The notes beneath the pieces are model-generated. The model saw only the letters and a list, made by a program, of their open reading frames with translations, had not been told where the DNA came from and did no database searches. This document shows positions 20,250 through 40,432 of a stretch of DNA of 64,000 bases, in pieces; positions within the stretch are counted from its first letter, which is position 1, and the number at the start of each line of letters is the position of its first letter. This DNA is from Hugenholtzia roseola DSM 9546 (GTDB lineage Bacteria > Bacteroidota > Bacteroidia > Cytophagales > Bernardetiaceae). The translations under genes were made by a program, and so were the position numbers. The DNA is taken from positions 1 through 64,000 of the forward strand of contig NZ_KE383880.1 of NCBI RefSeq assembly GCF_000422585.1, written 5' to 3'.

Positions 20250-20458
20250 AGGGTGCTGGGCAGGGAAATTTGAAAATAAGGGTTAAAAAAGGGGTTTTCA
20301 GACCTTTTAAGGTACGTTATACGATTTTATTTGCTAATTTTGCCAAAGGTCTGATTTAGCACCTTGCGCCTGCAATTTTGCGCACTATGTTTTATAGAAA
20401 AATTTTGCTGCTTTTGCCTCTTTATTTGCCGAGTCCATTTCCAAACATCTTTACTCGA

Positions 20459-21100
20459 ATGCGATACCTGCCCTATTTTGGCTTTGCGCTCTTGCTTATT
20501 CTTGCCGACCAAGCCCTCAAACTCTACATTCATTTCAATATTCCCTTAGATGGGGAGATTCCTGTTTTTGGCGACTGGTTCAAATTGCACCACACCCTAA
20601 ACCCTGGCATGGCGTTTGGCATCGAATTGGGTTCGGAATATGGGAAATTGGGGCTTACGCTTTTTCGCACGCTGGCAGTCTTGGTCATTGGTTATTTCTT
20701 GGCACGTGCCGTCAGGGAAAAGCAGCCGCGCGGCTTGCTTGTGTCGGGCGCAGCGATTTGGGGCGGCGCGTTGGGCAATGTCGTAGATAGCACTTTTTAT
20801 GGTGTTTTCATCGAGGGCAATGCCACACCAATCGGCGCGATAGAACCCCCTTTCTATCCTTGGTTTCATGGGCAGGTGATAGATATGTTCTATTTTGATA
20901 TATGGAAAGGTTATTTTCCTGAATATGTACCCCTTTGGGGCGGCAAATACTTCTCTTTTTTCCCTATCTTCAATATCGCTGATGCGGCTATCTTCTGTGG
21001 CGTAGTGGCGGTGCTAATTTGGCACAAAAAGTTTTTCCCACACGTAACGGAAGAGGAGGAACGAAAAAAAGAAAATCAGCCCACACAAGAGGTAGAATAG
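20459..21100 (+). CDS. lspA: lipoprotein signal peptidase II
   Basis: LspA family motifs (NPGMAFGI, FNIADAAI) and 4 TM segments. The track ORF begins at 20378. Confidence 0.8.
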   Translation: MRYLPYFGFALLLILADQALKLYIHFNIPLDGEIPVFGDWFKLHHTLNPGMAFGIELGSEYGKLGLTLFRTLAVLVIGYFLARAVREKQPRGLLVSGAAIWGGALGNVVDSTFYGVFIEGNATPIGAIEPPFYPWFHGQVIDMFYFDIWKGYFPEYVPLWGGKYFSFFPIFNIADAAIFCGVVAVLIWHKKFFPHVTEEEERKKENQPTQEVE

Positions 21101-21242: not shown

Positions 21243-24200
21243 ATGATAAAATATTTTTTCCTTTGCACGTTGTTTCTTTTGATGATGCCACTTTCGGCAC
21301 AGCAATATCTTTTTAAAGAATACGGTTTGGGGCATGGGCTGCCTCAATCGGAACTTCCAAGCCCACAGGCGATTTGTGTAGATAGTCAGGGGCGCATTTG
21401 GGTCGTAACCAATGGGGGCGGCATGGCAATTTTAGAACAAGAAAAGTATCGCCTCTTCAAAGAAAAAGACGGACTCAATAGCAACCTTTTAATGGGACTT
21501 ATAGAAAGCCCTGAAAAAGAACTTTGGATACTTTCACAAAACAAAAGCATTTCCCGATATGATGGGCATAACTTTTATTCCTACCCCGAATTAGAGGGCA
21601 AATTGCGCTTAGGTGGCACTCTCGCCTGCGATAAAAGAGGCAATGTTTGGGTCTTGGTCTTTGGTGGAGGCGTGGGTATCAATCAGACGCTCTATTGGAA
21701 ACCGCGCCAAAGTCAGACCTTCGTACCTTTCGAGCAAGCCGATTCGCTTACTGCCCCTTCGCCTACGTTGGGTCTGACACATACCTTAGATTATGACCCA
21801 ATTTTGTCGCAAAACGGGAAATTATATGCTTTTGATGGGAAAGTTTTTGTAGAAAAAAAATACCCTTCCGATTCGCTTCTGGTAGGCAAAAACCTGTTTT
21901 TCAATTACAAAGACTTCGAGGGAAATGAATGGCTCACCGCCATAGACCCTAACACAGGCAATGCGCACCTTCTTTTTTTCGAGGTAAGAAAAAAGCGTTT
22001 CACAAAAATTGAAGTGCCGCAGCCTTTTATTTGGGGTTTGGGGTGGCAGGTACGCTATTTTACAAATAAAAAATTGTATTTAGTAAATCCAAACCTAAAC
22101 CAAATTTTAATATATCAAAACAAAAAATTTGTCAAATCTTATGGCTTTGCCAATGGTTTGCAGGGCGCACTAACGGGCTGTGGAGCAGTAGTGGAAGATT
22201 CGGTAGGCTCGGTTTGGGTAGGAACGCGCGGCGCAGGACTTATTAAATTGCCCAACGATTATTTTAGCAATTTTACCCAACAAGATGGCTTGCAAGGCAA
22301 TATGACTTTTGGTATCTATGAAGATAGCAAAAAAAGAGTGTGGCTTGGCAGCAGTGCCGCAGGCATTACGCTTTACGAAGGCGGCAGGCTCAAAACCGTC
22401 CTTGCCAGCAACCAGCAAGCCGCCGTAGGGCGCGTATCGCATTTTTTTGAAAAGGGCGACACCATTTTTGCCGCCACAGGAGGAGGTATTATTTCAATTA
22501 TAGAATCAGAAAAAGACAAATTTTCTTGGCAATTCAGCCATCAAAGGTTTCATATTCCTGCGGGCTATTACAGAACCATCAGGCGCATAGATGATATTGT
22601 TTGGTTTTGTTCGCAAGCAAATGGCGTTTTTGGGTACGATATAGTCGCCGATAGTTTGTTGTATCAATTCAATTTGAATGAAGTGGGTTCGAGTACGATA
22701 CTCGATGTCAAGAAAGATAAAAAAGGCAACTATTGGTTTGCTACCTTCAACGGACTTAGCAAATGGGACGGCAAAAAGTTTGAACTTTTCAATACCAAAC
22801 AAGGGCTTAAAAATAATTTTATCCTCCAAATTCATATCGATAGGAAAGACCACATCTGGGCAGTGGCTTACAATGGTGGCTTGGCGCGTTTCGATGGCAA
22901 AAATTTTACTACCTATCAAAGCGGCGAAGGGCTTTCTTCGGATATTATTTACTCTATTCTGCCCGTTTCGAAGGTTCAAAATCAATATTGGATAGGCACA
23001 CAAAGAGGCTTAGACAAAGCCACTTTCGACGACAGAGGCAATCTCGTCAAAGTAGAATATTTCAACAAAGAACTTGGCTATTTGGGTGAAGAATCAAACG
23101 GCAAGGCGATAATGGAAGATAGCGAAGGCGGCATTTGGGTTGGGCATCTTACAGGGGTTACGAGGTGCGATTTTGGCTCTGCCGTTGCTCCAAAAGCTCA
23201 CAAGACTTTTATCACTGCCGTCAATTTGTCGCTTAATCAGACCAACTGGCGCGATTCTACCTATCAGAAATGGTATGAAAGTCTGACCACTTGGGAAAAT
23301 CTACCCCAAAAGTTGCGCCTGCCTGCCGAAGAAAATTCGCTCGTCATTCGTTTCTACACCACAGACTTTTCTAACCCCAAAGGCGCAACCTATCAATGGC
23401 AATTAGAAGGACTGCACAGCGATTTCCAACCGCCTACCTACCGCTCGGAAGCCAACTTTTCAAACCTGCCCGCAGGCACTTACACCTTCAAAGTGCGCTC
23501 TCGTGTGCAGGAGAATCAGGCTTGGAGTCAAACGGCTACTTTTGAGTTTGAGGTCTTGCCGAAATGGTGGCAAAAAATTGAGGTGCAGATAATTGGCTTT
23601 CTGTTCTCAACTTTGATGATTTTTGGTCTTATCAAATGGCGTACTAAGAGTTTGGAAGCCAGCAAGATTGCCTTAGAAAAGTTGGTAAAGGAGCGCACCC
23701 AAGAGGTAGTCAGACAAAAAGATGAGATTTTAGAAAAAAATAAGACCTTAGAAGTGCAGCAAGAGAAACTTTCACAGGCTTATGACGAAATTCAAGAGAA
23801 AAATCAGAACATTACGGCGAGCATTACCTACGCCAAGCGCATACAAGAGGCGATGCTACCTTCGCAGGAGCGCATTTGGCGCATTTTGCCACAAAGTTTC
23901 GTCTTTTATCAGCCGCGCGACATTGTTTCAGGAGATTTTTATTGGCTTTCCGAAATCGACCATCAGATTATTATTGCAGCCGTAGATTGCACAGGGCATG
24001 GCGTGCCGGGGGCGTTTATGTCGGTCATTGGTAGCAATATTTTGTATGAAGTCATTGAAAGTCAGCGCATTTTAGAGCCTGCCGCTATTTTATACGCCCT
24101 GCACGAAAATGTGCGCCGCCACCTCAATCAAGACCAAACACACAACCGCGACGGCATGGACATCGCCCTTTGTATCATCGACAAAAACGAGCGGTTGCTA

Positions 24201-24563
24201 CATTTTGCAGGGGCAAAAAATCCGCTCTTGCATGTGCGCCAGGGCAGTTTTGAACTTATCAAAGGCAGCAAATATCCCATTGGCGGCATTGGCAGCAGCC
24301 AGAATCCTATCTTTACACAAAAATCTATTCCGATAGCCGAAGATAGCACCTTTTACATCTATTCAGACGGTTTTCAAGACCAATTTGGCGGCAAAGAGGG
24401 GCGCAAGTACATGTCCCAACGCTTTCAAGCCCTTTTGGTGAGCCTATCAAAGCGTCCGCTACAAGCGCAAAAAGAAGCATTGGCAGAAGAACTCACGCTT
24501 TGGCAGCAGGCAGGCAAAGAAGAACAGGTAGATGATATTTTGGTGATAGGGTTTAAATTTTAA
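21243..24563 (+). CDS. sensor protein: periplasmic two-component-regulator beta-propeller repeats plus a Y_Y_Y-like domain, a TM segment, a coiled coil and a C-terminal PP2C/SpoIIE serine phosphatase
   Basis: Repeated W-x-G-T/S motifs and a TM near residue 780 (IIGFLFSTLMIFGLI). The PP2C region reads SGDFYW...DCTGHGVPGAFM...YSDGF. Confidence 0.7.
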   Translation: MIKYFFLCTLFLLMMPLSAQQYLFKEYGLGHGLPQSELPSPQAICVDSQGRIWVVTNGGGMAILEQEKYRLFKEKDGLNSNLLMGLIESPEKELWILSQNKSISRYDGHNFYSYPELEGKLRLGGTLACDKRGNVWVLVFGGGVGINQTLYWKPRQSQTFVPFEQADSLTAPSPTLGLTHTLDYDPILSQNGKLYAFDGKVFVEKKYPSDSLLVGKNLFFNYKDFEGNEWLTAIDPNTGNAHLLFFEVRKKRFTKIEVPQPFIWGLGWQVRYFTNKKLYLVNPNLNQILIYQNKKFVKSYGFANGLQGALTGCGAVVEDSVGSVWVGTRGAGLIKLPNDYFSNFTQQDGLQGNMTFGIYEDSKKRVWLGSSAAGITLYEGGRLKTVLASNQQAAVGRVSHFFEKGDTIFAATGGGIISIIESEKDKFSWQFSHQRFHIPAGYYRTIRRIDDIVWFCSQANGVFGYDIVADSLLYQFNLNEVGSSTILDVKKDKKGNYWFATFNGLSKWDGKKFELFNTKQGLKNNFILQIHIDRKDHIWAVAYNGGLARFDGKNFTTYQSGEGLSSDIIYSILPVSKVQNQYWIGTQRGLDKATFDDRGNLVKVEYFNKELGYLGEESNGKAIMEDSEGGIWVGHLTGVTRCDFGSAVAPKAHKTFITAVNLSLNQTNWRDSTYQKWYESLTTWENLPQKLRLPAEENSLVIRFYTTDFSNPKGATYQWQLEGLHSDFQPPTYRSEANFSNLPAGTYTFKVRSRVQENQAWSQTATFEFEVLPKWWQKIEVQIIGFLFSTLMIFGLIKWRTKSLEASKIALEKLVKERTQEVVRQKDEILEKNKTLEVQQEKLSQAYDEIQEKNQNITASITYAKRIQEAMLPSQERIWRILPQSFVFYQPRDIVSGDFYWLSEIDHQIIIAAVDCTGHGVPGAFMSVIGSNILYEVIESQRILEPAAILYALHENVRRHLNQDQTHNRDGMDIALCIIDKNERLLHFAGAKNPLLHVRQGSFELIKGSKYPIGGIGSSQNPIFTQKSIPIAEDSTFYIYSDGFQDQFGGKEGRKYMSQRFQALLVSLSKRPLQAQKEALAEELTLWQQAGKEEQVDDILVIGFKF

Positions 24564-27796: not shown

Positions 27797-27893
27797 CTTA
27801 ACATTACTGGGGCAGGGTGGGGGTTCAGTGGATTTGCGCAAAGCACAAAACCCTGCTTTTTAAACTTCTGACCGTTACAACGCTTGTTTGAAT
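27797..27893. repeat. right arm of the ~100-bp inverted repeat (partner at 25674..25774)
   Basis: See the left arm. Confidence 0.6.
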
Positions 27894-27927
27894 TTGAAAA
27901 ATAAAACGGTTGTAGCACTTTATGGCA

Positions 27928-29616
27928 CTACTGAAAAACCTTTGTGAAGTCAAATTTTTGTCCATCAAAAAGCCCTTTGTCGCTCATTTTCAGATAGGGA
28001 ATAACCAAAAGTGCCATAAAAGAAAGGGTCATGAAGGGTGCACGTAAAGGCGGGTGACAAAGATTTTTAGCATACGTATCGATTTGTGTGTATGCCTGCG
28101 CTACCGATAAGCCATCTTTATCCGACATCAAACCTGCAATAGGCAAAGGCAATACCTGCGGCTTTTCAAAAGGTGAAACGGCTGCAATGCCCCCCTGCGT
28201 TTCTATCAGCAAATTGATAACCTCTGCCAAACTTTCGTCGCTTGTCCCGACGGCGATAAGATTGTGCGAATCGTGTGCGACAGTGGAAGCGATTGCCCCT
28301 TTTTTCAGACCAAAATTCTTGACATAGCCTATCGCAATCGGCGCATCTTCTACATAACGGTTCAAGACCACTATTTTGAGAATGTCCTCAAAAAGTATTG
28401 CCTCGAAGTTATCGCCATTTTTCAAGCCCGTCATTTGTCTTATTTTTTTCATTTTATAGACCAAACTGCGCGTAATCAGCTCGCCATCAAGGACTTCAAT
28501 TACCTGCAAGCGGCGCACCCATTTCGGAATAGGAAAGGCAAAATCTTCTGCTTTTCTTTTTCGGGCTTTAAAAGAATTAAGTTGGGAAACAACCTCCTTT
28601 TCCAGCGGTTTGGCATTTAGAAAGGTCTCTTTTTGGGCTTTGTCATAGACCAAATTGCCTTCGATATAAGTCTGCAAGACTTCAAAGTTTTCCAAATCCT
28701 CGACGATAATAAAATCCGCCGCCTTTCCTACCTCCAAGCCGCCTACAGATAAGCCATAATGCGCAATCGGATTCAGACAAGCTACCTGCAAGACCTTAAA
28801 CAAATCGAGTCCCTTTTTTACGGCACGGCTCACTAATTGATTGATATGTCCAAGGGCTAAATCGTCGGGGTGTTTATCGTCCGAACAGAACATCATATTG
28901 GGATAGTGCGCGTCTAAAAGTCCGATAAGGGCTTCAAAATTTTTAGCCGCGCTTCCTTCGCGTATCAAGATTTTCATACCCAAAGCCAACTTTTCGGCTG
29001 CCTCCTCCTCTGTAAAGGCTTCGTGGTCGGTATAAATGCCTGCCTCTATGTATTTTTTCAAATCCGCGCCGCGCAAGGCAGGGGCATGCCCATCTACGGG
29101 TTTTCCCAAACGGTGTGCCTGCTCTATTTTCGCCATCACCTCTGGTTGGCGGGCAATGACGGCAGGGAAATTCATCATTTCAGCCAAATACAAAACTTCG
29201 GGCAGGGCTAATAATTGGGCTACTTCTTCTACTCCCAAAGTCGCGCCTGCGGTTTCGAAGGGCGTGGCAGGCACACAACTGGGCGCACCGAAGTAGAATT
29301 TTAAAGGCGTTTGTTTGGCGTTTTCTATCATAAAAAGCACCCCTTTGATGCCCAAGACGTTGGCTATCTCGTGTGGGTCGGAAACGGTCGCGACAGTGCC
29401 TTGTGCCAAAGCCAAGGGCGCAAAACTGCTCGGCACTAACATCGAACTTTCTATATGCACGTGTGCATCTATAAAGCCAGAGAGGGCAAAATGTGCCACT
29501 CGCGCCTCTTTTTCAAGTGGCTTCAAAGCGGCAATCTTTCCGTTTTCTATCAGAATTTCAACGGGGTAGATGCGCTTTTCCGCAATATTTACTAAGTTTG
29601 TGCGTATTGTAGTCAT
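27928..29616 (-). CDS. ade: adenine deaminase
   Basis: Amidohydrolase motifs (FIDAHVHIESS, DPHEIAN) and adenine-deaminase-family length of 562 aa. Confidence 0.8.
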   Translation of the reverse strand: MTTIRTNLVNIAEKRIYPVEILIENGKIAALKPLEKEARVAHFALSGFIDAHVHIESSMLVPSSFAPLALAQGTVATVSDPHEIANVLGIKGVLFMIENAKQTPLKFYFGAPSCVPATPFETAGATLGVEEVAQLLALPEVLYLAEMMNFPAVIARQPEVMAKIEQAHRLGKPVDGHAPALRGADLKKYIEAGIYTDHEAFTEEEAAEKLALGMKILIREGSAAKNFEALIGLLDAHYPNMMFCSDDKHPDDLALGHINQLVSRAVKKGLDLFKVLQVACLNPIAHYGLSVGGLEVGKAADFIIVEDLENFEVLQTYIEGNLVYDKAQKETFLNAKPLEKEVVSQLNSFKARKRKAEDFAFPIPKWVRRLQVIEVLDGELITRSLVYKMKKIRQMTGLKNGDNFEAILFEDILKIVVLNRYVEDAPIAIGYVKNFGLKKGAIASTVAHDSHNLIAVGTSDESLAEVINLLIETQGGIAAVSPFEKPQVLPLPIAGLMSDKDGLSVAQAYTQIDTYAKNLCHPPLRAPFMTLSFMALLVIPYLKMSDKGLFDGQKFDFTKVFQ

Positions 29617-29719
29617 AGGGCTTTTAAAAAAAGTGAGCAGCCGTAGTTTCTACGCGCTCGGATAAAGGTCATAGACAAAAGTAACATAAAAAATTGTACC
29701 TCAAAAATCTTACAAACTC

Positions 29720-29896
29720 ATGAAATTTCGCCTCATCGCGCTTCTAATTTGTGTCCTTGCTTTTTTTAGCTTCGAATCTTGTATTCACGCGCCGCGTCAG
29801 GCTTGGACACCCAAAAATGACAAAGTAAAATTGGCACGCTCAAAGCCTAAAAATCCGAAAGAAGAGAAGAAGATTCATCACGTAAAGGCTTGGTAG
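29720..29896 (+). pseudogene. mini-lipoprotein paralogue 1, frameshifted at a T7 homopolymer (29761..29767). The ATG at 29719 gives MKFRLIALLICVLAFF then a stop; the +1 frame continues SFESCIHAPRQAWTPK...KAW. With T6 instead of T7 the reading frame would be intact.
   Basis: Hand translation of both frames. Paralogues 2 and 3 are intact. Confidence 0.5.
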
Positions 29897-29952
29897 CAAT
29901 CCCTATTTTGGCACTACTTTTGTCTATTCTATCTTAAAAAAATACTAATTCC

Positions 29953-30102
29953 GATGAAAAAAATACGTTCCCACGCCTCTAAATGGGTGCTTTTTCTCCT
30001 ATTCCTTTGGTTTGGCAGCCTTGTGAGCAGTTGTATTCACTCGCCCAAGCAGCCTTGGACACCCAAATACAAGAGCTATAAACAATCTAAAAAGAAAAAA
30101 TA
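29953..30102 (+). CDS. mini-lipoprotein paralogue 2 (49 aa; below the size cut-off of the ORF track)
   Basis: MKKIRSHASKWVLFLLFLWFGSLVSSCIHSPKQPWTPKYK..., a signal peptide plus Cys with a Lys-rich tail. It shares the SCIH(A/S)P(R/K)QxWTPK motif with paralogue 1. Confidence 0.55.
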
Positions 30103-30132
30103 GACCTCTCTCTTTTTCACCAAGTTTATTTC

Positions 30133-30309
30133 ATGATGCGATTGCTGCCCCAATTTTTCACGTTCCGATTGGCACGCCTACTGTGTTTGGTAGGACTCTT
30201 GCTGCTCCCTTTGTTTCTTGTATCCTGTCAGAGCCACAAGCCCAAATACGGAAAAGGCAAGACCATGAAGCGTGGAAAGGCGATTCCTTGCCCGATGAAA
30301 GACTGTTAG
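30133..30309 (+). CDS. mini-lipoprotein paralogue 3 (58 aa)
   Basis: MMRLLPQFFTFRLARLLCLVGLLLLPLFLVSCQSHKPKYGKGK..., a signal peptide plus Cys with a basic tail. Confidence 0.5.
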   Translation: MMRLLPQFFTFRLARLLCLVGLLLLPLFLVSCQSHKPKYGKGKTMKRGKAIPCPMKDC

Positions 30310-30414
30310 GGTTTGAAGTGGTTTAGAAAACAAGCAAATAACTAACAGTTATTTGAAAACTGTTAGTTATGATAACTCATTTTTTCGCCGTTGTCTTTGC
30401 ACATAGGCAAGATA

Positions 30415-31140
30415 CTATCTACATTTTTGTATATAAACCACCTTTATTTCTTTATTTTCTACACTATCCATATAAATTTCGTTTTCATTCGTTTCGTCAG
30501 TAGGAACATTGAAAAAATTATCCCTATTAAAACTTACATAAGTTGTTTTTTTGTTTTCGCTTGTTTTATTTTTTTGCACAATTTTAGGCACTACCGTATC
30601 AAATAGGGTTATGATTGTATCTAAATCTTGAACAGTATACTTATAACCGTACTCTAACACAGGAAAAGCACCCAAAGAAATGTGCCTGAAACACTCCTCT
30701 TTATTTTCAGGGTTTTCAAAGAAAAAATGTATTTCTGGAACGTACCCTTTTTTGTAAAAATCAATTCCCCTTGAAGAATTATGATAAATCACATGAATAT
30801 AAAAGTCATTTTTCTTGTAAATATTTGTTACTTTTAAAGAGTCTATTTTTTTACCCATTTTTATTTCATTTTTACTTATTTTGGGATATCGAGGAGGAAT
30901 AACTGTATGAAGACTTCGCATATCTATTACTGTATTTCTATTGTTTGTTATTTGAAAATTAGAGTTTTCATTGTGTACGCTTTTTATTTCCCAATGCGGA
31001 GGCATTTTAAAAGAAAAGTAAGGATGCTCGATATGACACCAGTTGTCTGTATTGATGTTTTGAATGTTTAGATTTTGTTCTTCTGCTGAATTGCAGGCAG
31101 TTAGGAGTATTACGATAAATAATACAATATTTTTTTTCAT
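30415..31140 (-). CDS. hypothetical lipoprotein in a strongly AT-rich islet
   Basis: N-terminal MKKNIVLFIVILLTAC lipobox. Its composition is clearly lower in GC than the flanks. Confidence 0.55.
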   Translation of the reverse strand: MKKNIVLFIVILLTACNSAEEQNLNIQNINTDNWCHIEHPYFSFKMPPHWEIKSVHNENSNFQITNNRNTVIDMRSLHTVIPPRYPKISKNEIKMGKKIDSLKVTNIYKKNDFYIHVIYHNSSRGIDFYKKGYVPEIHFFFENPENKEECFRHISLGAFPVLEYGYKYTVQDLDTIITLFDTVVPKIVQKNKTSENKKTTYVSFNRDNFFNVPTDETNENEIYMDSVENKEIKVVYIQKCR

Positions 31141-31342
31141 TTTTTTTCATTTTCCATGAAGTTGTCATAACAATTTTTGGCTTATCCTTTCTACCCTACA
31201 AAGATAAAAAATTATCTTGAAAATGCTTGTGTTTTGAGTGCTTTTTTTGAGATTTATTTTATGCCTGTGTAATACAGGCAAGGGCAAGCAGTAGCCACTA
31301 ATTTAAGCGTATAAATAAAAAAGAAAACAGCAAACTCTTTTT

Positions 31343-31954
31343 CTACGCCATCGAGGAAGCGATTAAAATTTGATGCAAAGCCGCCACTTGCGCCTTGATG
31401 TCTGCCCAAGGGCTGTTATCGAGATGATAGGTTGCCAACTTTTCTTTCTCTGCATCAGGCATCTGCTTGGCGATGATGGCTAAAATCTGCTCCCTTGTTC
31501 GATGGGGGTCTCTTTTCTGCACACGCTCAAGGCGCGTTTCGAGCGGCGCACTTACCAAAATGGTTGCATCTAATTGTAAATACGACCCTGTTTCGAAAAG
31601 CAATGCAGCCTCCTTCAAAACATAGGGCGCAGCCTTTTGTGAAGCCACCCAAGCGGCATAGTCGCGTGCGACGGCAGGGTGTACCAAATTCTCTAATTGT
31701 TTTATTTTTGAAGTCTGATTGAAAACTACTTCGGCTAAGTAGGCGCGATTGAGCTTTCCCTCGTCGATGTAAGATTTTGAGCCAAAAAGAGAAATTATAG
31801 CCGCCTTCAAGTCTGAATCTTCTTCCATCACCTGATGAGCGCGTTTATCGGCTTCGTAAATAGGTATCTGATAGGCAGCAAAAAGTTGGCATACATAACT
31901 TTTACCACTACCAATACCGCCCGTAATGCCAATTTGTCGTGGCTTTGTCTTCAT
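31343..31954 (-). CDS. coaE: dephospho-CoA kinase
   Basis: P-loop GITGGIGSGKS and CoaE family length. Confidence 0.85.
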   Translation of the reverse strand: MKTKPRQIGITGGIGSGKSYVCQLFAAYQIPIYEADKRAHQVMEEDSDLKAAIISLFGSKSYIDEGKLNRAYLAEVVFNQTSKIKQLENLVHPAVARDYAAWVASQKAAPYVLKEAALLFETGSYLQLDATILVSAPLETRLERVQKRDPHRTREQILAIIAKQMPDAEKEKLATYHLDNSPWADIKAQVAALHQILIASSMA

Positions 31955-32407
31955 AAAAACAATGGGGATAGAAAAGGAATTGAAAAATAGAATTTTGAAG
32001 GGCTTTCCTACAAAAGTAAGGAAAATATTTCTTTTTTTCCAAACTTCGAAAACTTTTTTAGCAGGCTACAAAAATGACCAAAGGTCAGTTTCTTTCTGAT
32101 GGTTTTTTGTGCATTTGAAACCTGCATTTGCAAAACATGTTCAAATAGGATTTTTTTTAGGATAAGATAGACAAAAAATAGATTTTAGATTTTTTATGAA
32201 AACAATATAAACTACTGCCTTTTTGCGTTTTTTCGGAATAAAATTCTAAAAAAACGAATTTGAAGGCATACAAAAAGAGTATTCACGATTTTTTAACACA
32301 GAAAACCAAATTAGGATAGTGGGCTTAGTGCCTGATTTTCAAGGTATAAGGTTTGGAGTTGTGTTTTTTTTCCTAATTTTGCACCCATTCACCAACAAGT
32401 TCTTTGA

Positions 32408-33169
32408 ATGGATACATTTCACAAGCGACTTCTTTTGCCTACTCTGTTGCTCTGTCTATGCGTTTTTGGTGCTTTCCAAAGTCCTAATTGGGCAGAAGTT
32501 CGTTCTGCTTTGCACCAAACCTTTACGCCCGATTCGCTTTTAGCAGATACCCTATCTGAAAGCGAAGCCCTTGCAACAGCCAGCGAAGAAGCACAGTTTT
32601 CGTGGGAGGATTTGAAAGATTATATTCGCGCCCATGAAACGCTGCTTACCAAACCGCGTGCTTGTTCGGGCGGTTATATGAGTATCGGCTACGGACATGT
32701 GCTAACGGCAAAAGACAAAGCCCTTTACAAAGGGATTACAGCCGCACAAGCCGACTCACTCTTGGAGCATGACCTTGGCTTGGCTCGCTCTTGGGTAGAA
32801 AGTCAGTTAGACCTTGCCCCACAGGAGCTAATGGCAATCACACACTTTTGTTATGCCTTTGGTTCGAGCAAATTGCGCAAGAGTACCTTGTTTCAGAAGC
32901 TCAAAAATGGAGAGCCAATAGAGCAAGAGTTAGCCCGTTGGGTGCATGTCAATGGACGACCCAATGCGTATTTGAAAAAACAACGCGAATTTGAGGCGAA
33001 TCTCTTTTATGGGCGTATGCCCAAGCCGCTGCGCCCTGTCGAGCCTTTGCTTGATGAGCAGGACGGTATGCAAGAAGAGCAGACCCAAAGCCAAGCAGCT
33101 GCCGAAGACACAGAAAAGGCAGACTCGCTGGAAACGACGCAAGCACAAATGCTTGACAACAAGCACTAA
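32408..33169 (+). CDS. secreted lysozyme-like glycoside hydrolase (GH24/T4-lysozyme-like motif E-x8-GGYMSIGYGH)
   Basis: Signal peptide. The catalytic-region motif resembles phage-type lysozymes. The C-terminal acidic/Gln-rich tail looks disordered. Confidence 0.5.
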   Translation: MDTFHKRLLLPTLLLCLCVFGAFQSPNWAEVRSALHQTFTPDSLLADTLSESEALATASEEAQFSWEDLKDYIRAHETLLTKPRACSGGYMSIGYGHVLTAKDKALYKGITAAQADSLLEHDLGLARSWVESQLDLAPQELMAITHFCYAFGSSKLRKSTLFQKLKNGEPIEQELARWVHVNGRPNAYLKKQREFEANLFYGRMPKPLRPVEPLLDEQDGMQEEQTQSQAAAEDTEKADSLETTQAQMLDNKH

Positions 33170-33272
33170 TAGCCCTTCGCTCTACAACGAAAAAGCGAAG
33201 CAGAGGCACAAAAAAGGTGCGATACAAGTAGATTTTTAGTTTAGAAAGGGCTTTTCCAAATTGCCCACCCAC

Positions 33273-33308
33273 TGCCTCTTTTTTCGGAAAGAGGCAGTTT
33301 TTTTGTGT
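33273..33308 (+). terminator. intrinsic terminator (ACTGCCTCTTTT ttcg GAAAGAGGCAGT followed by T7)
   Basis: Read directly. It lies downstream of the lysozyme-like gene. Confidence 0.65.
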
Positions 33309-33994
33309 TCCAAATTTATGCCGCCTTGAAAATAAAAATAAAAAAGACCCGATTTGCCTAACAAGTGTAAGTTTTTTCGAATTTCTGCCAAAAAAATTGC
33401 GTATCAAGAAGGGAAATCGTATCTTTGTGGCACAGTTTTCTATCTAAAAAGCCAAAAGACGCATCTTTGCCTTTATAGGCTACCCTTGTACCTTTTCGAG
33501 GTTGTGATTTGCCACATGACGGCTTTTTAGAAGCAATCTGAACCTTAGAAAAAAAACTTGCTACCACCTTTTTGCTTTACTTCAAAAAAAATAGAGATAA
33601 AATGGCGTGGTGCTGCCCCCTAACTTGACAATTACAAGATTAGGTCTTATCTTGTGTAGCGTTTTGGGCGGAAGGTCTGATTTGAGCGTCTTTGCGCCTC
33701 TCTTCTCTCGATAAGCCGCTGCCCAAAGTCTTTATCTTTTCACACGCAATCTTGTTGTATCTGAAACGCTATTATTCTTTTATTCTTTCATCTGCTATTC
33801 CCTCATCTGTTATTCTCTTTTATACCATTTCCTCTTCGCCTCTTTTTTGCAAGTAGAGAGCCGCTAAAAAGCCCCCAAACTATTGGGATATGTTGCAATT
33901 TCTCTATTTGTTTTGGATACAAAGGGCAACTACCTTCTCTTGGTTTCGTCCTTTTATCCCCAATCTTTTTCATTCACAAAAAAGCCAAAACAAT

Positions 33995-35335
33995 ATGAAC
34001 TGGAAAATATGCCTTCTTTTACCTCTCCTAAGCCTTTCCTTTTCGGTGTTTGCGCAAACTGCCTTAGACGACTTTGTAAAAGGTAAGAACCTCCGCAGCC
34101 AAAGGCAGTATAAACAAGCCATCGAGCAATTTGACATCGCCATCTCAAAAGATGCCTCCGTTCCCAACTATCATTACGAAAAGGCACTCTGCCACATGAT
34201 GATGCAGCAGGGCGACCAAGCTATCGCAAGTTTCGAAAAGACGGTTGCTTTGAAACCCGACTATGTAGATGCTCATTCGCGTTTGGCTGTTCTTTACAAA
34301 AAAAATAAGCAATACGACCAAGCCATCGTCGCCTACGACAACGCCTACAAGCACGAAACTGATGCCAATAAGCGACTTTCTTACAAGCTCAATATCATCA
34401 CCATTTTGGCACGCAACCGCAAAATTCAGGAAGCAGGGCAGCATATCGCTGATGCTAAAAAAATTGCGCCCGAAGATTTGCAGGTCTTGTATTTTGATGC
34501 TAAATACAATAACACCGTCAATAAGTACGAGGAGGCTAAAAATAGCGCACTCAAAGCCGTAGGCAAACTGACCAGCGACGCACCACAGGACATCGCACGC
34601 TATTATTTCGAATTGGGATATGCCTATCACTACTTAGCCAAGTATGACGAAAAAGAAGAAGCCTTCAAAAAAGCACAATGGGGACCTTATGTAAAGCCTA
34701 TCATCGAGCTTTCGCCCCAGTTCTATCACGCCATTGCCCTTTCTTATTTCAAAATCTATGAAATGGACAAAAGCAAGGAATTGGTAGAAACGGCATTGAA
34801 GATGCGCAAAGACTTCCCACAAGCACACGACCTTTTGGTGAAAATTGCCTCCTCTTCTACTGATAAATCTGCCGTTATTGAACACCAAAAAACGGCGATT
34901 CAGACCGAACCCAACGCCATCAAACGCGCCTACAAGTTTGCAGACTTAGCAGAATTAGAGCTTGAATCAGGACGCTATGAAGATGCCATCAAGTCGGCAG
35001 ACGAATGTTTGCAACAGCAGCCTAAAAACTATGCCGTTGTCTTTATCAAAGCCATTGCCCAGCACAAGCTCAAAAATACGGCGCAGTCTATCAAAACCTT
35101 AGACGAACTCTTGCAGTTTCCCGGCATCGACCCCGAAACAAAGGCGCAGTACAACTTTGCAATGGGCGTTTTCTTCGAGAAAATCAACGAGAAAGACAAA
35201 GCCTTAGAAGCCTACAAACGCGCCGTATATGGCACTTATAAATACGCTTCTTTGCAGCAAATAGACCGCCTCAAGCCCGCAGACCAGCCAGACGAAACAA
35301 CACCTGACACCAAAGATGCGGTAGGTGAAGAATAG
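33995..35335 (+). CDS. secreted tetratricopeptide-repeat protein
   Basis: Signal peptide MNWKICLLLPLLSLSFSVFA and repeated TPR-like A/Y/L spacing. Track ORF from 33890. Confidence 0.6.
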   Translation: MNWKICLLLPLLSLSFSVFAQTALDDFVKGKNLRSQRQYKQAIEQFDIAISKDASVPNYHYEKALCHMMMQQGDQAIASFEKTVALKPDYVDAHSRLAVLYKKNKQYDQAIVAYDNAYKHETDANKRLSYKLNIITILARNRKIQEAGQHIADAKKIAPEDLQVLYFDAKYNNTVNKYEEAKNSALKAVGKLTSDAPQDIARYYFELGYAYHYLAKYDEKEEAFKKAQWGPYVKPIIELSPQFYHAIALSYFKIYEMDKSKELVETALKMRKDFPQAHDLLVKIASSSTDKSAVIEHQKTAIQTEPNAIKRAYKFADLAELELESGRYEDAIKSADECLQQQPKNYAVVFIKAIAQHKLKNTAQSIKTLDELLQFPGIDPETKAQYNFAMGVFFEKINEKDKALEAYKRAVYGTYKYASLQQIDRLKPADQPDETTPDTKDAVGEE

Positions 35336-35427
35336 GTCATAGGTCAAGAATAAGCGAGGAATAGGTCAGAAAAAACGCCTTGAACCTCTCCTTATTCCTA
35401 CCCTTTCACAGTTTTGCTTAGAATTTG

Positions 35428-35466
35428 AATCTCCAAAACGCTTGCAACTAAATACTGCAAGCGTTT
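35428..35466 (+). terminator. intrinsic terminator (AAACGCTTGCA ... TGCAAGCGTTT followed by T7)
   Basis: Read directly. Confidence 0.65.
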
Positions 35467-35562
35467 TTTTGTTCGAATTGGCTCGCCGACTTGTTTTTTC
35501 GTTTTTTTTCGTATCTTTTGCTTTCAAATTAAAATAGCTCACCTTTTTTATCTCCCTGCCAC

Positions 35563-36888
35563 ATGCTGGACGCAAATCTGCCTGCTGCCCCTAAAAATCA
35601 ACCCAAAGTTTTGAACGCTTGGGCTTCTTTTGATTGGGCAAATTCGGTTTATAATTTGGTGATTACCACTACCATTTTTCCCATTTTCTTCAACCAAGCC
35701 TCGCGTGCTGCCTATGGTAGTGACGTAGTTTCCTTTTTTGGCTTTTCGGTAGAAAATACCGTCTTGTACTCTTACGCGCTTTCGGTAGCCTATCTTTTCA
35801 TTACCTTGCTTTCGCCCTTTCTTTCAGGCATTGCCGATTATGGCGGCAAGAAGAAGTTTTTTATGCAGTTTTTCACCTATTTAGGTGCGTTTTCTTGTAT
35901 GATTTTGTTTTTCTTCAAAGGTAGCAATGTCGAGCTTGCAATTATTTCAGCCGCCCTTGCCAGCATTGGCTATGCAGGAGGCATGGTCTTTTACAATGCC
36001 TTTTTACCAGAAATTGCAACCGAAGACCGCTATGATAGCGTCAGTGCGCGTGGCTTTGCGATGGGCTATATCGGGAGTGTGATTTTGCAAATCGTCAATA
36101 TTTTAATGGTGGAAAAGCCCGAATGGTTTGGCATAGAAGATGCTGCTATGGGTGCGCGTTATTCCTTTCTGACAGTAGGCGTTTGGTGGCTTGTTTTTTC
36201 TCAAATTGCCTTTTTCTACCTACGCGACACGCGCCACACCTTAGAAAGTTTGGGCAGCGTCGCCAAAAGAGGCATAGAAGAACTCAAAGAAGTAGGGCGG
36301 CTTATTTTGAAGATGCCACGCCTATTGCGCTTTCTTATCGCCTTTTCTTTCTACAACATGGGCGTGCAAACAGTGATGTTTATGGCTTCGCTTTTTGGTG
36401 AGAAAGAGCTACAACTACCTACTTCCGAGCTTATCGGGATTATTTTGGTGATACAATTAGTGGCGGCGATTGGTGCTTTTGTGTTTTCTAAAATTTCGGC
36501 ACGTTTTGGCAACTTATCCGCCCTTCTGATAATGGTCGTGATGTGGATAGGCATCTGTGTAGCCGCTTATTTTGTGCGCAAAGGCACGTATGATTTCCAC
36601 ATCTTGGCAATATGGGTCGGGCTGATTATGGGGGGCATACAATCCCTTTCGCGCTCTACATTTTCTAAGTATTTACCCGAAGATACGGCAAATACCGCTT
36701 CTTTTTTTAGCTTTTTCAACATTGCCGAAAGATTTTCTACCTCCTTGGGCATGCTTGCCTACGGACTCATCGAGCAACTTACAGGCAATATGCGCAACTC
36801 CGCTATCGGTTTGATGCTCTTTTTCTTGGTCGGATTGGTCGCTTTGTGGAGCTTGCGAAAGGTAAGCCGCGAGGGAAGTCCGCAATAA
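35563..36888 (+). CDS. MFS-family transporter
   Basis: About 12 hydrophobic segments, 441 aa, MFS-like loop motifs. Confidence 0.65.
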   Translation: MLDANLPAAPKNQPKVLNAWASFDWANSVYNLVITTTIFPIFFNQASRAAYGSDVVSFFGFSVENTVLYSYALSVAYLFITLLSPFLSGIADYGGKKKFFMQFFTYLGAFSCMILFFFKGSNVELAIISAALASIGYAGGMVFYNAFLPEIATEDRYDSVSARGFAMGYIGSVILQIVNILMVEKPEWFGIEDAAMGARYSFLTVGVWWLVFSQIAFFYLRDTRHTLESLGSVAKRGIEELKEVGRLILKMPRLLRFLIAFSFYNMGVQTVMFMASLFGEKELQLPTSELIGIILVIQLVAAIGAFVFSKISARFGNLSALLIMVVMWIGICVAAYFVRKGTYDFHILAIWVGLIMGGIQSLSRSTFSKYLPEDTANTASFFSFFNIAERFSTSLGMLAYGLIEQLTGNMRNSAIGLMLFFLVGLVALWSLRKVSREGSPQ

Positions 36889-39520: not shown

Positions 39521-40432
39521 TTAGTTTTCCCAAAGGTTGCTTTCGTACTCGATTTGCTTGTATTCGTACTGCTCACTTCCGATAAGCGAACGCTGTGTAT
39601 CGCCGTCGTTCATGTCGATAATCATTTCGTCGTCTAAGTTATCGTACTTGATGATTTTGCCTGTAAAGAGGCGCAAGTCGAAGGCTTCTTCGAGGTTTCT
39701 ATGATGTGCGTTGTTGTTGGTATTGTACCAGATGGCTTTTGGGTTGTCGCGGAAAAGGTTAGAAACCAATTCTTTGTAGCTAAAGAAAGCCAAAGGTTTT
39801 TCCATACCTGTCTTGGTGTCGAGTTCGGCAGGAATCCAGAAACCGATAGACTGAATGTCGTGAATCATGCGCGAGCGTTTTTTATCAAAAAGCAAATCTT
39901 CGCGGATTTCCATGATAGAAATTTGCTGTGGCATAAATTCTGCCGCTTCGGGAGCTGCCGAGCCACCGCCGCCATCGCCGCCGCCCCAATCGCCGCCGCT
40001 ACCCCAGTCGTCGCCGCCGCCGCCGCCGCCCCAACCGAGGTCGTCTGCGCCGAAGCCCATCGCGATTTCTTCTTCGGTAAGTTCGGGTCCGTCAGAAGGG
40101 ATTTTGAGCTTTTCTAAGAAGGTTTCTGTAGACATGCGCGTGGTGAGCGAATCGTTTTCGTAAGGTCTGATGATGCCCATTTTGGCAGCTTCAAAGATTA
40201 CCTTCGTAATTTCGTTGGCGCGAGCGAAGAAAGGCTTGTTTTGCTTTTCTTTGAGCAAGACTTTAAACCAGAGGGTCTTTTTATACATAATCTGCGACTC
40301 GTGAATCGGGCGCAAAGAGTTGTGATTATAGCCGTCGTTGGCAAACTCCATGCCGTATTCCTGCGCCTGCACCGATAAGGCTATCAGCGAAAAAAAGGCA
40401 ATAGAAAAGAGATGCAAGAGGTTTTTTTTCAT
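39521..40432 (-). CDS. secreted hypothetical protein with a Gly/Asp/Trp-rich low-complexity linker (GWGGGGGGDDWGSGGDWGGGDGGGG)
   Basis: Signal peptide MKKNLLHLFSIAFFSLIALSVQA. It sits immediately downstream of the GldG-like gene. Confidence 0.45.
   Translation of the reverse strand: MKKNLLHLFSIAFFSLIALSVQAQEYGMEFANDGYNHNSLRPIHESQIMYKKTLWFKVLLKEKQNKPFFARANEITKVIFEAAKMGIIRPYENDSLTTRMSTETFLEKLKIPSDGPELTEEEIAMGFGADDLGWGGGGGGDDWGSGGDWGGGDGGGGSAAPEAAEFMPQQISIMEIREDLLFDKKRSRMIHDIQSIGFWIPAELDTKTGMEKPLAFFSYKELVSNLFRDNPKAIWYNTNNNAHHRNLEEAFDLRLFTGKIIKYDNLDDEMIIDMNDGDTQRSLIGSEQYEYKQIEYESNLWEN

What the first reader, a model, noticed from the sequence alone, without database searches (positions are those of the whole stretch)
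29720..30309. Tandem array of three paralogous mini-lipoprotein genes missed by the 60-aa ORF cut-off; the first carries a frameshift in a T7 tract.
Hand translation shows three consecutive plus-strand genes (49-58 aa). Each encodes a signal peptide ending in Cys followed by a short Lys-rich peptide. Genes 1 and 2 share SCIH(A/S)P(R/K)Q(A/P)WTPK. In gene 1 the frame breaks exactly at a run of seven T (29761..29767), and six T would restore it. That is the signature of slipped-strand phase variation, or of a homopolymer sequencing error. Small lipidated basic peptides in arrays could be membrane-active or surface-decorating.
Basis: seen in the sequence. Interest (0 to 1): 0.5.

Follow-up and report, generated by a model that had tools for sequence, protein, structure and literature searches.

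The report
Conserved operon of three mini-lipoproteins
The three tiny genes are real, intact and conserved across a group of gliding soil and water bacteria. They encode very short, positively charged, probably lipid-anchored peptides of unknown role, and the supposed frameshift in the first gene does not exist.

Summary
Window = Hugenholtzia roseola (Cytophagales). Three plus-strand ORFs are present: g1 29720-29896 (58 aa), g2 29954-30103 (49 aa) and g3 30133-30309 (58 aa). Each has a signal peptide ending in [S]-Cys followed by a Lys/Pro-rich tail.

The reported frameshift is wrong. With seven T the codons read GCT TTT TTT AGC (A-F-F-S) in frame. Six T would truncate the protein. An independent assembly is identical, and NCBI already lists all three as hypothetical proteins.

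The genes are not chance ORFs. The same trio, in the same order T1-T2-T3, occurs in 11 distinct loci of Bernardetiaceae, Thermoflexibacteraceae and metagenomes, usually divergent from adenine deaminase. dN/dS is 0.07-0.13.

g1 and g2 are true paralogues (motif C-x-[HY]-[AS]-P-x-x-x-W-T-P). g3 is not demonstrably related to them. It belongs to a wider family with an invariant C-terminus, IPCPxKDC. Elsewhere in Cytophagales that family usually sits directly upstream of cmk-ispH.

There is no Pfam, NCBIfam, PDB, Rfam or literature match.

Best reading: an operon of three 23-38-residue cationic lipopeptides that face the periplasm and act through short docking motifs. Their function is unknown. 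Phase variation is refuted.

The parts
29720..29896 (+). g1 (type 1 mini-lipoprotein), 58 aa, intact ORF. Predicted mature peptide CIHAPRQAWTPKNDKVKLARSKPKNPKEEKKIHHVKAW (38 aa, net charge +8).
   Evidence: ORF. Identical to NCBI/Logan protein P0002. Orthologues found in 10 other loci. dN/dS 0.09 within Bernardetia.
29761..29767 (+). T7 homopolymer inside g1. Reads GCT TTT TTT AGC = Ala-Phe-Phe-Ser, in frame. This is not a frameshift site.
   Evidence: a T6 version truncates at 35 aa; identical in the second assembly; 123 A/T runs of 7 or more in the window.
29780..29815 (+). g1 lipobox Cys21 codon (29780-29782) and the conserved motif C-I-H-A-P-R-Q-A-W-T-P-K.
   Evidence: Invariant C, P and W-T-P in alignments A2/A6. 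Family logo.
29954..30103 (+). g2 (type 2 mini-lipoprotein), 49 aa. Predicted mature peptide CIHSPKQPWTPKYKSYKQSKKKK (23 aa, net +8).
   Evidence: P0003; orthologues P0006, P0007, P0010-P0014. dN/dS 0.07.
30032..30067 (+). g2 lipobox Cys27 codon (30032-30034) and the motif C-I-H-S-P-K-Q-P-W-T-P-K.
30133..30309 (+). g3 (type 3 mini-lipoprotein), 58 aa. Lipobox Cys32 is at 30226-30228. Predicted mature peptide CQSHKPKYGKGKTMKRGKAIPCPMKDC (27 aa, net +7).
   Evidence: P0001. 55 family members at 90% clustering and 38 metagenome loci. dN/dS 0.13.
30283..30306 (+). Family-invariant C-terminal octapeptide I-P-C-P-M-K-D-C, followed immediately by the stop codon at 30307-30309.
   Evidence: Invariant columns I51 P52 C53 P54 K56 D57 C58 in 43 sequences. 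Encoded by varied synonymous codons and all three stop codons in 11 loci.
30338..30370 (.). Perfect 13-bp inverted repeat (ATAACTAACAGTT-N7-AACTGTTAGTTAT) between the convergent g3 and the 241-aa ORF. It resembles a bidirectional terminator and marks the end of the g1-g3 unit.
   Evidence: terminator-like site. (-20.6 kcal/mol, z = -3.07).
29915..29922 (+). TACTTTTG, a match to the Bacteroidetes -7 promoter element TAnnTTTG, 32 nt upstream of g2. Other matches lie at 29593-29600 (+, upstream of g1) and 29676-29683 (-, upstream of ade). These are consensus matches only.
   Evidence: 103 matches in the window against 76 +/- 8.5 expected.
27928..29616 (-). Adenine deaminase gene, the conserved divergent neighbour of the trio.
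   Evidence: Pfam PF13382/PF01979. The same divergent arrangement is seen in L082, L084, L086, L087, L088, L090, L099, L104, L109, L126 and, with a type-2-like gene, in L058.
20378..21100 (+). lspA (signal peptidase II). It is not part of the locus but is the enzyme expected to process the three precursors, and it is present in the same window.
   Evidence: PF01252 Peptidase_A8, E = 3e-32.

Best explanation
g1, g2 and g3 are three intact, separately conserved protein-coding genes. They form one co-oriented unit, probably an operon that ends at the hairpin at 30338-30370. Each encodes a lipoprotein-type precursor with a basic N-region, a hydrophobic core and [S/A/G]-Cys.

Inferred processing: after Sec export, Lgt, LspA (encoded at 20378-21100) and N-acylation would leave very short lipid-anchored peptides of 38, 23 and 27 residues. 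These peptides are strongly cationic (net +7 to +8), Pro-rich and without a predicted fold.

They lack the acidic lipoprotein export signal that Bacteroidota use for surface display. They are therefore most likely to stay on a periplasm-facing membrane leaflet.

The parts under the strongest constraint are short linear motifs. In g1 and g2 this is C-x-[HY]-[AS]-P-x-x-x-W-T-P directly after the lipidated Cys, and g1 additionally ends in [KR]-x-W. In g3 it is the invariant C-terminal I-P-C-P-x-K-D-C-COOH, whose two Cys probably form a 6-residue disulfide loop or a metal/ligand site.

The most likely mode of action is therefore as membrane-tethered docking or accessory peptides. They would bind a specific envelope partner or anionic envelope polymer, in the manner of small accessory lipoproteins such as LptM. 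They are unlikely to be enzymes, toxins or switches.

Shown: the genes are intact, conserved, syntenic and under purifying selection at the amino-acid level. Inferred: lipidation, topology and the docking role.

There is no frameshift and no evidence of phase variation.
For: Intact ORFs. The same proteins are found in NCBI and in a Logan assembly that is 100% identical over 7.8 kb.

Homologues were found by exhaustive HMMER and by profile searches. The trio occurs in the fixed order T1-T2-T3 in 11 distinct loci from Bernardetiaceae, Thermoflexibacteraceae and metagenomes, often with overlapping stop/start codons.

Nei-Gojobori dN/dS is 0.09, 0.07 and 0.13 at dS 1.1-1.5 between two Bernardetia genomes. 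The invariant IPCPxKDC is written with different synonymous codons and all three stop codons.

Lipobox position -1 is S, A or G and +1 is Cys in 73 of 73 homologues. Mature lengths are 22-38 aa, net charge is +4 to +10, and no D/E occurs at +2 to +5. PF08139 (lipoprotein lipid attachment site) hits 4 of 43 family members. lspA lies in the window.

AlphaFold2 with family alignments gives only the signal-peptide helix. The mature parts are coil at pLDDT about 60.

The surface export signal in Bacteroidota is K-(D/E)2 or S-D-D-D next to the Cys (PMC5080379) and is absent here. The chance expectation for three lipobox ORFs in the gap is about zero. No RNA family matches the region.
Against: No expression, proteomic or lipidation data exist for any member. 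No dedicated SPII predictor (SignalP/LipoP) was available, so the lipoprotein call rests on a PROSITE-style rule and on conservation.

g1 has Glu at lipobox position -2 and fails the strict PROSITE pattern; it passes only a relaxed rule. Its orthologues also have polar or small residues there (E/Q/A/G, plus one Phe).

No partner is known. The conserved neighbours (adenine deaminase, and for g3-type genes cmk and ispH) are cytoplasmic housekeeping enzymes that give no functional clue. The tight coupling of g3-type genes to cmk in other lineages leaves room for a regulatory (leader-peptide) role there.
Confidence: 0.7

Rival explanations
1. One reading: gene 1 is frameshifted at the T7 tract. 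It is either a phase-variable contingency gene switched by slipped-strand mispairing or a dead duplicate or sequencing error.
For: A T7 homopolymer does lie inside the coding sequence at 29761-29767. In principle homopolymers can slip.
Against: The frame is intact with T7, and T6 destroys it. A second assembly is identical. NCBI and Logan both give the full 58-aa product. A/T runs of 7 or more occur 123 times in 64 kb. Orthologues have in-frame T6/T7 runs at Phe-Phe codons or none at all. g1 has its own orthologues under purifying selection, so it is not a dead duplicate.
Confidence: 0.02
2. The g3-type ORF, and perhaps the whole array, is mainly a cis-acting leader or monitoring peptide. Translation or export of the peptide would control expression of the next gene, in the way SecM, VemP and MifM control secA, secDF2 and yidC2.
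For: Outside the trio-bearing clade the g3-type gene sits directly upstream of cmk. It overlaps the start or lies up to about 110 nt away in 25 of 38 metagenome loci, and sits directly upstream of ispH in 4 more. Its architecture is a signal peptide plus an invariant Pro-containing C-terminal motif ending exactly at the stop codon.
Against: In H. roseola g3 is followed by a terminator-like hairpin and a convergent gene, so there is nothing downstream to regulate. In all 11 trio loci cmk is absent, yet IPCPxKDC stays invariant. The peptide is so short (40-60 aa in total) that the signal peptide would barely leave the ribosome tunnel before termination, which does not fit a pulling-force sensor. 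cmk and ispH have no link to secretion.
Confidence: 0.07
3. The peptides are lipidated RiPP precursors (DAG-RiPP-like). A cytoplasmic enzyme would modify the C-terminal Cys motif of g3 before export and lipidation, as for DybA and HymA of other Cytophagales.
For: The overall architecture matches published DAG-RiPPs: an SPII signal, a short linker and an invariant C-terminal Cys-Pro-containing motif. That work also reports an uncharacterised lipoprotein-signal cluster with a conserved CxxxxC motif (PMC13056109). g3 ends in C-P-x-K-D-C, which is a CxxxxC.
Against: No MNIO/DUF692 or other peptide-modifying gene lies near any of the loci examined. Neighbours are ade, cmk, ispH, nqr and others. None lies within about 10 kb in the window. 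The motif is not CPxCGxG. The string KDC was not found in the supplementary text held for the preprint, though that text may lack the sequence tables. g1 and g2 have no second Cys.
Confidence: 0.08
4. The peptides are structural tethers or membrane-active agents. They could be Lpp-like peptidoglycan anchors through C-terminal Lys, or entericidin-like bacteriolytic or antimicrobial lipopeptides.
For: They are small, lipid-anchored and very basic. g2 ends in KKKK. The tandem arrangement of small paralogous lipoprotein genes recalls ecnAB (own knowledge).
Against: A C-terminal Lys is not conserved in type 2: Rhodoflexus ends in ...DVYPR and Thermoflexibacter in ...KTRH. No coiled coil or amphipathic helix is predicted. 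No Pfam hit to Lpp or entericidin families was found at E <= 1. Strong purifying selection on specific short motifs, rather than on bulk charge, argues for specific recognition.
Confidence: 0.06
5. The ORFs are spurious: chance reading frames in a long intergenic region or in a non-coding RNA.
For: They are short, have no Pfam/NCBIfam family and have no expression data.
Against: Simulation gives about 0.011 lipobox ORFs expected against 3 observed. There are homologues in several genera with dN/dS of about 0.1, synonymous-codon variation under an invariant peptide and no Rfam hit.
Confidence: 0.01

Closest known systems
DAG-RiPPs / chryseobasin-like lipidated peptides (DybA, HymA; PMC13056109)
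   Same: They are short precursors from Cytophagales and other Bacteroidota. Each has an SPII lipoprotein signal, a short linker and an invariant Cys-Pro-containing motif at the extreme C-terminus. The mature product is a lipid-anchored mini-peptide of unknown function.
   Different: DAG-RiPPs are defined by an adjacent MNIO enzyme and the CPxCGxG motif, and many carry an acidic KDD surface/OMV signal after the Cys. g3 has C-P-x-K-D-C, a basic linker and no modifying enzyme nearby. g1 and g2 have no second Cys at all.
LptM (YifL), small accessory lipoprotein of the LptDE translocon (PMC10567701)
   Same: It is a small (about 6 kDa) lipoprotein. The conserved part is a short motif right after the lipidated Cys, which docks into a membrane-embedded partner, and the rest is short and poorly structured. 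This is the best model for how g1 and g2 might work.
   Different: LptM carries Pfam PF13627 and is proteobacterial, whereas none of g1-g3 hits PF13627 at E <= 1. The motifs are unrelated (CGLKGPLY... against CxHAPxQAWTP). The mature peptides here are even shorter and far more basic.
Entericidin EcnA/EcnB (own knowledge)
   Same: Adjacent paralogous genes encode lipoproteins of about 40-50 aa.
   Different: Entericidins are amphipathic-helix toxin/antidote peptides of Enterobacteria. Here no helix is predicted, there is no sequence or Pfam similarity, and there are three genes of two unrelated types.
Braun's lipoprotein Lpp (own knowledge)
   Same: It is a small, abundant envelope lipoprotein with a functionally important C-terminal Lys. 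g2 ends in Lys.
   Different: Lpp is a 58-residue trimeric coiled coil cross-linked to peptidoglycan. The peptides here are 23-38 residues, Pro-rich and non-helical, and the terminal Lys is not conserved.
SecM/VemP/MifM-type monitoring leader peptides (own knowledge)
   Same: They have a signal sequence and a conserved C-terminal motif and sit directly upstream of another gene, as g3-type genes do upstream of cmk in other Cytophagales.
   Different: The downstream genes here (cmk, ispH) are unrelated to secretion. The motif is retained where no downstream gene exists, as in this window. The peptide is too short for co-translational force sensing.

Membership tests
Bacterial lipoprotein precursor (SPII substrate; PROSITE PS51257-type rule) | Basic n-region, uncharged hydrophobic h-region, then a lipobox [LVI..]-x-[GAS]-Cys with the Cys at position 15-35. 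| tested here: met
   g2 and g3 pass the strict PROSITE-style pattern. g1 passes only with position -2 relaxed, because it has Glu there. Position -1 is S/A/G and +1 is Cys in 73 of 73 homologues. PF08139 hits 4 of 43 type-3 members.
Bacterial lipoprotein precursor (SPII substrate) | Actual diacylglyceryl modification, LspA cleavage and N-acylation. | not testable with these tools
   The only available evidence is that lspA is present in the window. Confirmation needs MS or globomycin experiments.
Phase-variable contingency gene | A repeat tract whose length puts the ORF in or out of frame, with length heterogeneity between or within strains. | tested here: not met
   The ORF is in frame with T7. 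Two assemblies are identical. The tract is ordinary for this genome.
Bacteroidota surface-exposed lipoprotein | Lipoprotein export signal: K-(D/E)2, Q-A-(D/E)2 or S-D-D-D at +2 to +6 after the Cys (PMC5080379). | tested here: not met
   No Asp or Glu occurs at +2 to +5 in any of 73 homologues.
LptM (YifL) | Pfam PF13627 motif spanning the lipobox and the first mature residues. | tested here: not met
   No Pfam hit at E <= 1 for g1-g3. PF13627 is not among the families hit by the 43 type-3 members.
DAG-RiPP (MNIO-modified lipidated peptide) | A neighbouring MNIO (DUF692) or other RiPP-modifying gene. | tested here: not met
   No such gene appears among the called genes of 15 or more loci or within about 10 kb in the window.
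DAG-RiPP (MNIO-modified lipidated peptide) | C-terminal CPxCGxG (or EGKCG) core motif. | tested here: not met
   g3 ends in IPCPMKDC, and g1 and g2 have no second Cys. Whether g3 belongs to the paper's 'Cluster X' (CxxxxC) could not be checked.
Entericidin / Lpp / phage o-spanin | Sequence membership in the respective Pfam/PHROG families. For spanins, also an adjacent i-spanin/holin/endolysin cassette. | tested here: not met
   No Pfam hits and no PHROG hits for g1 and g3. g2 has only a 0.11 E-value hit to an unknown family. The GH24 lysozyme gene at 32408-33169 is 2 kb away, behind two unrelated genes.
Type 1/2 family (defined here) | SPII signal followed by C-x-[HY]-[AS]-P-x-x-x-W-T-P, in a gene pair lying upstream of a type-3 gene. 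| tested here: met
   g1 and g2 both carry the motif. hhalign T1 versus T2 gives 97.6%. The order T1-T2-T3 holds in 11 loci.
Type 3 family (defined here) | SPII signal, a basic linker of 13-20 residues, then an invariant I-P-C-P-x-K-D-C at the C-terminus. | tested here: met
   g3 has KAIPCPMKDC-stop. The invariant columns hold across 43 sequences.

The most novel reading that the evidence does not exclude
g3 would represent an undescribed, Cytophagales-wide class of lipid-anchored peptides of about 25 residues. Its invariant C-terminal C-P-x-K-D-C would be a functional 'warhead': a redox-active disulfide loop, a Cys-Pro heme- or metal-binding site, or the target of an unlinked modifying enzyme. 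In most lineages it would be co-expressed with the envelope-precursor genes cmk and ispH. In Bernardetiaceae and Thermoflexibacteraceae it would have recruited two further paralogous mini-lipoproteins (W-T-P motif), forming a dedicated three-peptide envelope module.
Probability: 0.15. Interest if true: 0.65.

Novelty: new variant of a known kind. Interest (0 to 1): 0.38.

Why it matters
Small proteins are routinely lost or left as 'hypothetical'. Here three of them turn out to be two conserved, previously undescribed families of extremely short lipoproteins.

One family is a fixed three-gene operon in two Cytophagales families. The other has more than 55 sequence clusters across Cytophagales and usually sits as the first cistron of a cmk-ispH operon.

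Both offer a clean, testable entry into how minimal lipid-anchored peptides function in the Bacteroidota envelope. That field has only recently produced LptM and the lipidated RiPPs.

The result also corrects a tempting but wrong call of phase variation.

Tried and rejected
- Frameshift or phase variation: rejected by direct translation, a T6 test, a second assembly and homopolymer statistics.
- Non-coding RNA: Rfam at E <= 1 gave only two chance-level hits outside the genes.
- Known protein families: Pfam, NCBIfam and PHROGs gave nothing for g1-g3. PDB sequence profiles gave only signal-peptide-level noise.
- Synteny through adenine deaminase homologues in 80 genomes: these were too distant (54-58% identity, mostly Chitinophagaceae). 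None carried the small genes except Rhodocytophaga L058.
- Homology of g3 to g1/g2: not significant by tblastn or hhalign. Only a weak shared P-K-Y-K patch and positional equivalence were found, with a type-2-like gene in Rhodocytophaga occupying the slot that type 3 occupies in Adhaeribacter.
- P0004 (836 aa), which hit the first profile: judged spurious. It is a repeat protein with RQAWIAKQDSIK units.
- Structure prediction: only the signal-peptide helix was confident, so no fold search was run.
- Prophage lysis cassette (o-spanin idea): rejected on context and PHROGs.
- Literature: no hit for the motif, and only one taxonomy paper for the organism. The supplements of the DAG-RiPP paper did not contain the motif or were not held.
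Full report
**What is in the sequence**

The 798-nt gap lies between the adenine deaminase gene (27928-29616, minus strand; PF13382/PF01979) and a 241-aa minus-strand ORF (30415-31140). It contains exactly three ATG-started ORFs of at least 45 aa, all on the plus strand:
- g1, 29720-29896, 58 aa: MKFRLIALLICVLAFFSFES|CIHAPRQAWTPKNDKVKLARSKPKNPKEEKKIHHVKAW
- g2, 29954-30103, 49 aa: MKKIRSHASKWVLFLLFLWFGSLVSS|CIHSPKQPWTPKYKSYKQSKKKK
- g3, 30133-30309, 58 aa: MMRLLPQFFTFRLARLLCLVGLLLLPLFLVS|CQSHKPKYGKGKTMKRGKAIPCPMKDC

In 5000 first-order Markov simulations of the gap, the mean number of lipobox-positive ORFs of at least 45 aa was 0.011, and none had two or more. Three are observed.

**The frameshift is not there**

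The T7 run at 29761-29767 reads GCT TTT TTT AGC = Ala-Phe-Phe-Ser. That is the same frame as the ATG at 29720 and the SCIHAPRQAWTPK motif.

The ORF lister, the NCBI protein (P0002, 100% identity over 58 aa) and the gene caller on an independent Logan assembly of SRR896243 all give the uninterrupted 58-aa protein. That assembly is base-for-base identical to window 27799-35616.

A/T runs of 7 or more occur 123 times in the 64-kb window. Orthologues of g1 have in-frame T6/T7 runs at Phe-Phe codons or none at all. Phase variation is therefore unsupported.

**Organism and annotation status**

Source names identify the window as Hugenholtzia roseola (Cytophagales, Bernardetiaceae). All three genes already exist at NCBI as 'hypothetical protein'. 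They were 'missed' only by a 60-aa filter.

**The genes are conserved**

A word-indexed search found only self-hits. An exhaustive HMMER scan of 1.84 billion representatives then found remote relatives, and profile searches extended them. Fetching the encoding contigs showed that the array is syntenic.

Loci with the order type 1 - type 2 - type 3 on one strand, divergent from adenine deaminase:
- a Bernardetiaceae MAG (L082)
- Bernardetia sp. (L084)
- a 3-Mb ENA contig (L086, with an insertion between types 1 and 2)
- Rhodoflexus caldus (L087)
- a Thermoflexibacter MAG (L088)
- metagenome contigs L099, L104, L109 and L126

L095 has the trio without ade. With the window this makes 11 distinct loci with the same order, often with overlapping stop/start codons. 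That pattern indicates an operon.

Each of g1, g2 and g3 has its own orthologous group:
- Type 1: 54-64 aa, motif C-x-[HY]-[AS]-P-x-x-x-W-T-P, and a C-terminal [KR]-x-W.
- Type 2: 45-52 aa, the same motif followed by PKYKSYK.SKKK[KR] in Bernardetiaceae.
- Type 3: C-terminal K-x-G-x-x-I-P-C-P-x-K-D-C.

Between two Bernardetia genomes dN/dS is 0.09, 0.07 and 0.13 at dS 1.1-1.5. In more distant pairs synonymous sites are saturated, yet the peptides remain alignable.

**Paralogy**

The mature parts of types 1 and 2 are clearly homologous (hhalign 97.6%, E 3e-12; tblastn E about 1e-4). Type 3 is not significantly related to them.

A weak hint of common origin remains. There is a shared [WY]-x-P-K-Y-K patch. 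In addition, a type-2-like gene occupies the same slot in Rhodocytophaga (ade <-> gene -> cmk; L058) that type 3 occupies in Adhaeribacter (L090). 'Three paralogues' is therefore only two-thirds demonstrated.

**The type 3 family is much wider**

One search returned 55 clusters, including Bernardetia, Rhodoflexus, Thermoflexibacter, Cyclobacteriaceae and Adhaeribacter. In a 43-sequence alignment, I-P-C-P-x-K-D-C and the lipobox Cys are invariant. Mature peptides are only 22-29 residues.

The invariant octapeptide is encoded with varied synonymous codons and all three stop codons. Selection therefore acts on the peptide, not on the nucleotide sequence.

A metagenome scan gave 38 more loci. Their contexts break down as follows:
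- cytidylate kinase (cmk) starts between -1 and about +110 nt after the type-3 stop: 25 loci
- ispH follows directly: 4 loci
- the trio with ade: 4 loci
- no recognised neighbour, or the contig ends too soon: 4 loci
- no strict motif match on re-scan: 1 locus (L114)

Contigs found through exact proteins show the same type 3 -> cmk (-> ispH) arrangement, with 1-2-nt gaps or an ATGA overlap.

**Lipoprotein inference**

All 73 homologues have S, A or G at position -1 and Cys at +1 after a hydrophobic core with a basic N-terminus. g2 and g3 pass a strict PROSITE-type lipobox rule. g1 passes only if position -2 (Glu) is relaxed, and type-1 orthologues also carry E/Q/A/G, and in one case Phe, there.

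PF08139 matches 4 of 43 type-3 members. Signal peptidase II is encoded in the same window at 20378-21100.

No Asp or Glu occurs at +2 to +5 in any member. The Bacteroidota surface-export signal is K-(D/E)2 or S-D-D-D at those positions (PMC5080379). I therefore infer a periplasm-facing location.

AlphaFold2 with the family alignments predicts only the signal-peptide helix. The mature parts are coil at pLDDT about 60. That fits short linear-motif peptides rather than folded domains.

**Mechanism**

Shown: the genes are intact, translated-frame conserved, operonic and under purifying selection concentrated on short motifs.

Inferred: they are lipidated and periplasm-facing. They act as tethered docking or accessory peptides, through the motif abutting the lipid anchor (g1, g2) or through a C-terminal two-Cys loop (g3). 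The best functional model is LptM, whose conserved residues next to the acylated Cys insert into LptD (PMC10567701). Membership in that family fails, since there is no PF13627 hit.

**Closest architectural relative of g3**

The closest published architecture is the recently described DAG-RiPP class. These have an SPII signal, a short linker and an invariant C-terminal Cys-Pro motif, in Dyadobacter, Hymenobacter and other Bacteroidota. The same work mentions an uncharacterised 'CxxxxC' cluster (PMC13056109).

The defining MNIO gene and the CPxCGxG motif are both absent here. The held supplementary text does not contain the motif.

**Rivals**

A leader or monitoring-peptide role is suggested by the tight coupling to cmk elsewhere. 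It cannot explain g3 in this window, which is followed by a terminator-like hairpin (30338-30370; -20.6 kcal/mol, z = -3.07) and a convergent gene. It also cannot explain why the motif is retained in all trio loci that lack cmk.

Lpp-like tethering is disfavoured because the terminal Lys of type 2 is not conserved. Entericidin-like and spanin-like roles lack any sequence, structural or contextual support.

**Verdict**

The locus is an ordinary-looking but previously undescribed conserved operon of three mini-lipoproteins belonging to two families. The frameshift and phase-variation claim is an error of hand translation.

Interest is moderate. The function is unknown. However, the families are well defined, taxonomically coherent and experimentally tractable, and g3's invariant C-terminal Cys loop and its cmk-ispH linkage are unexplained.

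Noticed in passing
window 30415-31140 (-): A 241-aa ORF with its own lipoprotein-type signal (…LLTAC|NSAEEQ) lies in a stretch of 29% GC, against 42-49% in the flanks. It has no Pfam or NCBIfam family. It occupies the position where relatives have unrelated genes, so it is probably a horizontally acquired insertion.
   Followed up: partly
L090 4001-4866; L091 4001-4847; L094 4001-4805; L097 4001-4833; 25 of L099-L136: In other Cytophagales the g3-type mini-lipoprotein gene is the first cistron directly upstream of cmk, usually followed by ispH. The stop and start codons are adjacent or overlapping. This widespread, unexplained operon links a ~25-residue lipopeptide to two housekeeping genes.
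   Followed up: partly
window 20378-21100 (+): lspA (signal peptidase II, PF01252) lies 9 kb upstream of the trio, next to a trypsin-like peptidase gene (19161-20249) and a 1106-aa Reg_prop/Y_Y_Y/SpoIIE phosphatase gene (21243-24563).
   Followed up: no
window 32408-33169 (+): A 253-aa protein has a GH24 phage-lysozyme domain (PF00959; PHROG 7 endolysin, E = 5e-23). It sits between coaE and a TPR gene, with no other phage genes nearby.
   Followed up: partly
window 30338-30370: A perfect 13-bp AT-rich inverted repeat lies between convergent genes. It folds at -20.6 kcal/mol (z = -3.07) and resembles a bidirectional terminator.
   Followed up: yes
L086 4480-4968: In one Bernardetia-like genome about 0.5 kb carrying small ORFs (57, 59 and 41 aa; for example MKILLDECVTRKVKNSLREFEV…) is inserted between the type 1 and type 2 genes. 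It may be a small toxin-antitoxin-like module. The trio order is otherwise kept.
   Followed up: no
window, whole: The Bacteroidetes -7 promoter element TAnnTTTG is over-represented: 103 matches against 76 +/- 8.5 in shuffles, with 0 of 100 shuffles reaching 103.
   Followed up: no
P0025, P0060: Two type-3 family members carry evidently wrong source names at JGI: 'ABC-type spermidine/putrescine transport system permease subunit II' and 'uncharacterized protein YceK'.
   Followed up: no
window 39521-40432 (-) and 37616-39358 (-): A gldN gliding-motility gene and an ABC_transp_aux/DUF7088 (GldG-like) gene lie about 8-10 kb downstream. This is consistent with a gliding Cytophagales genome.
   Followed up: no
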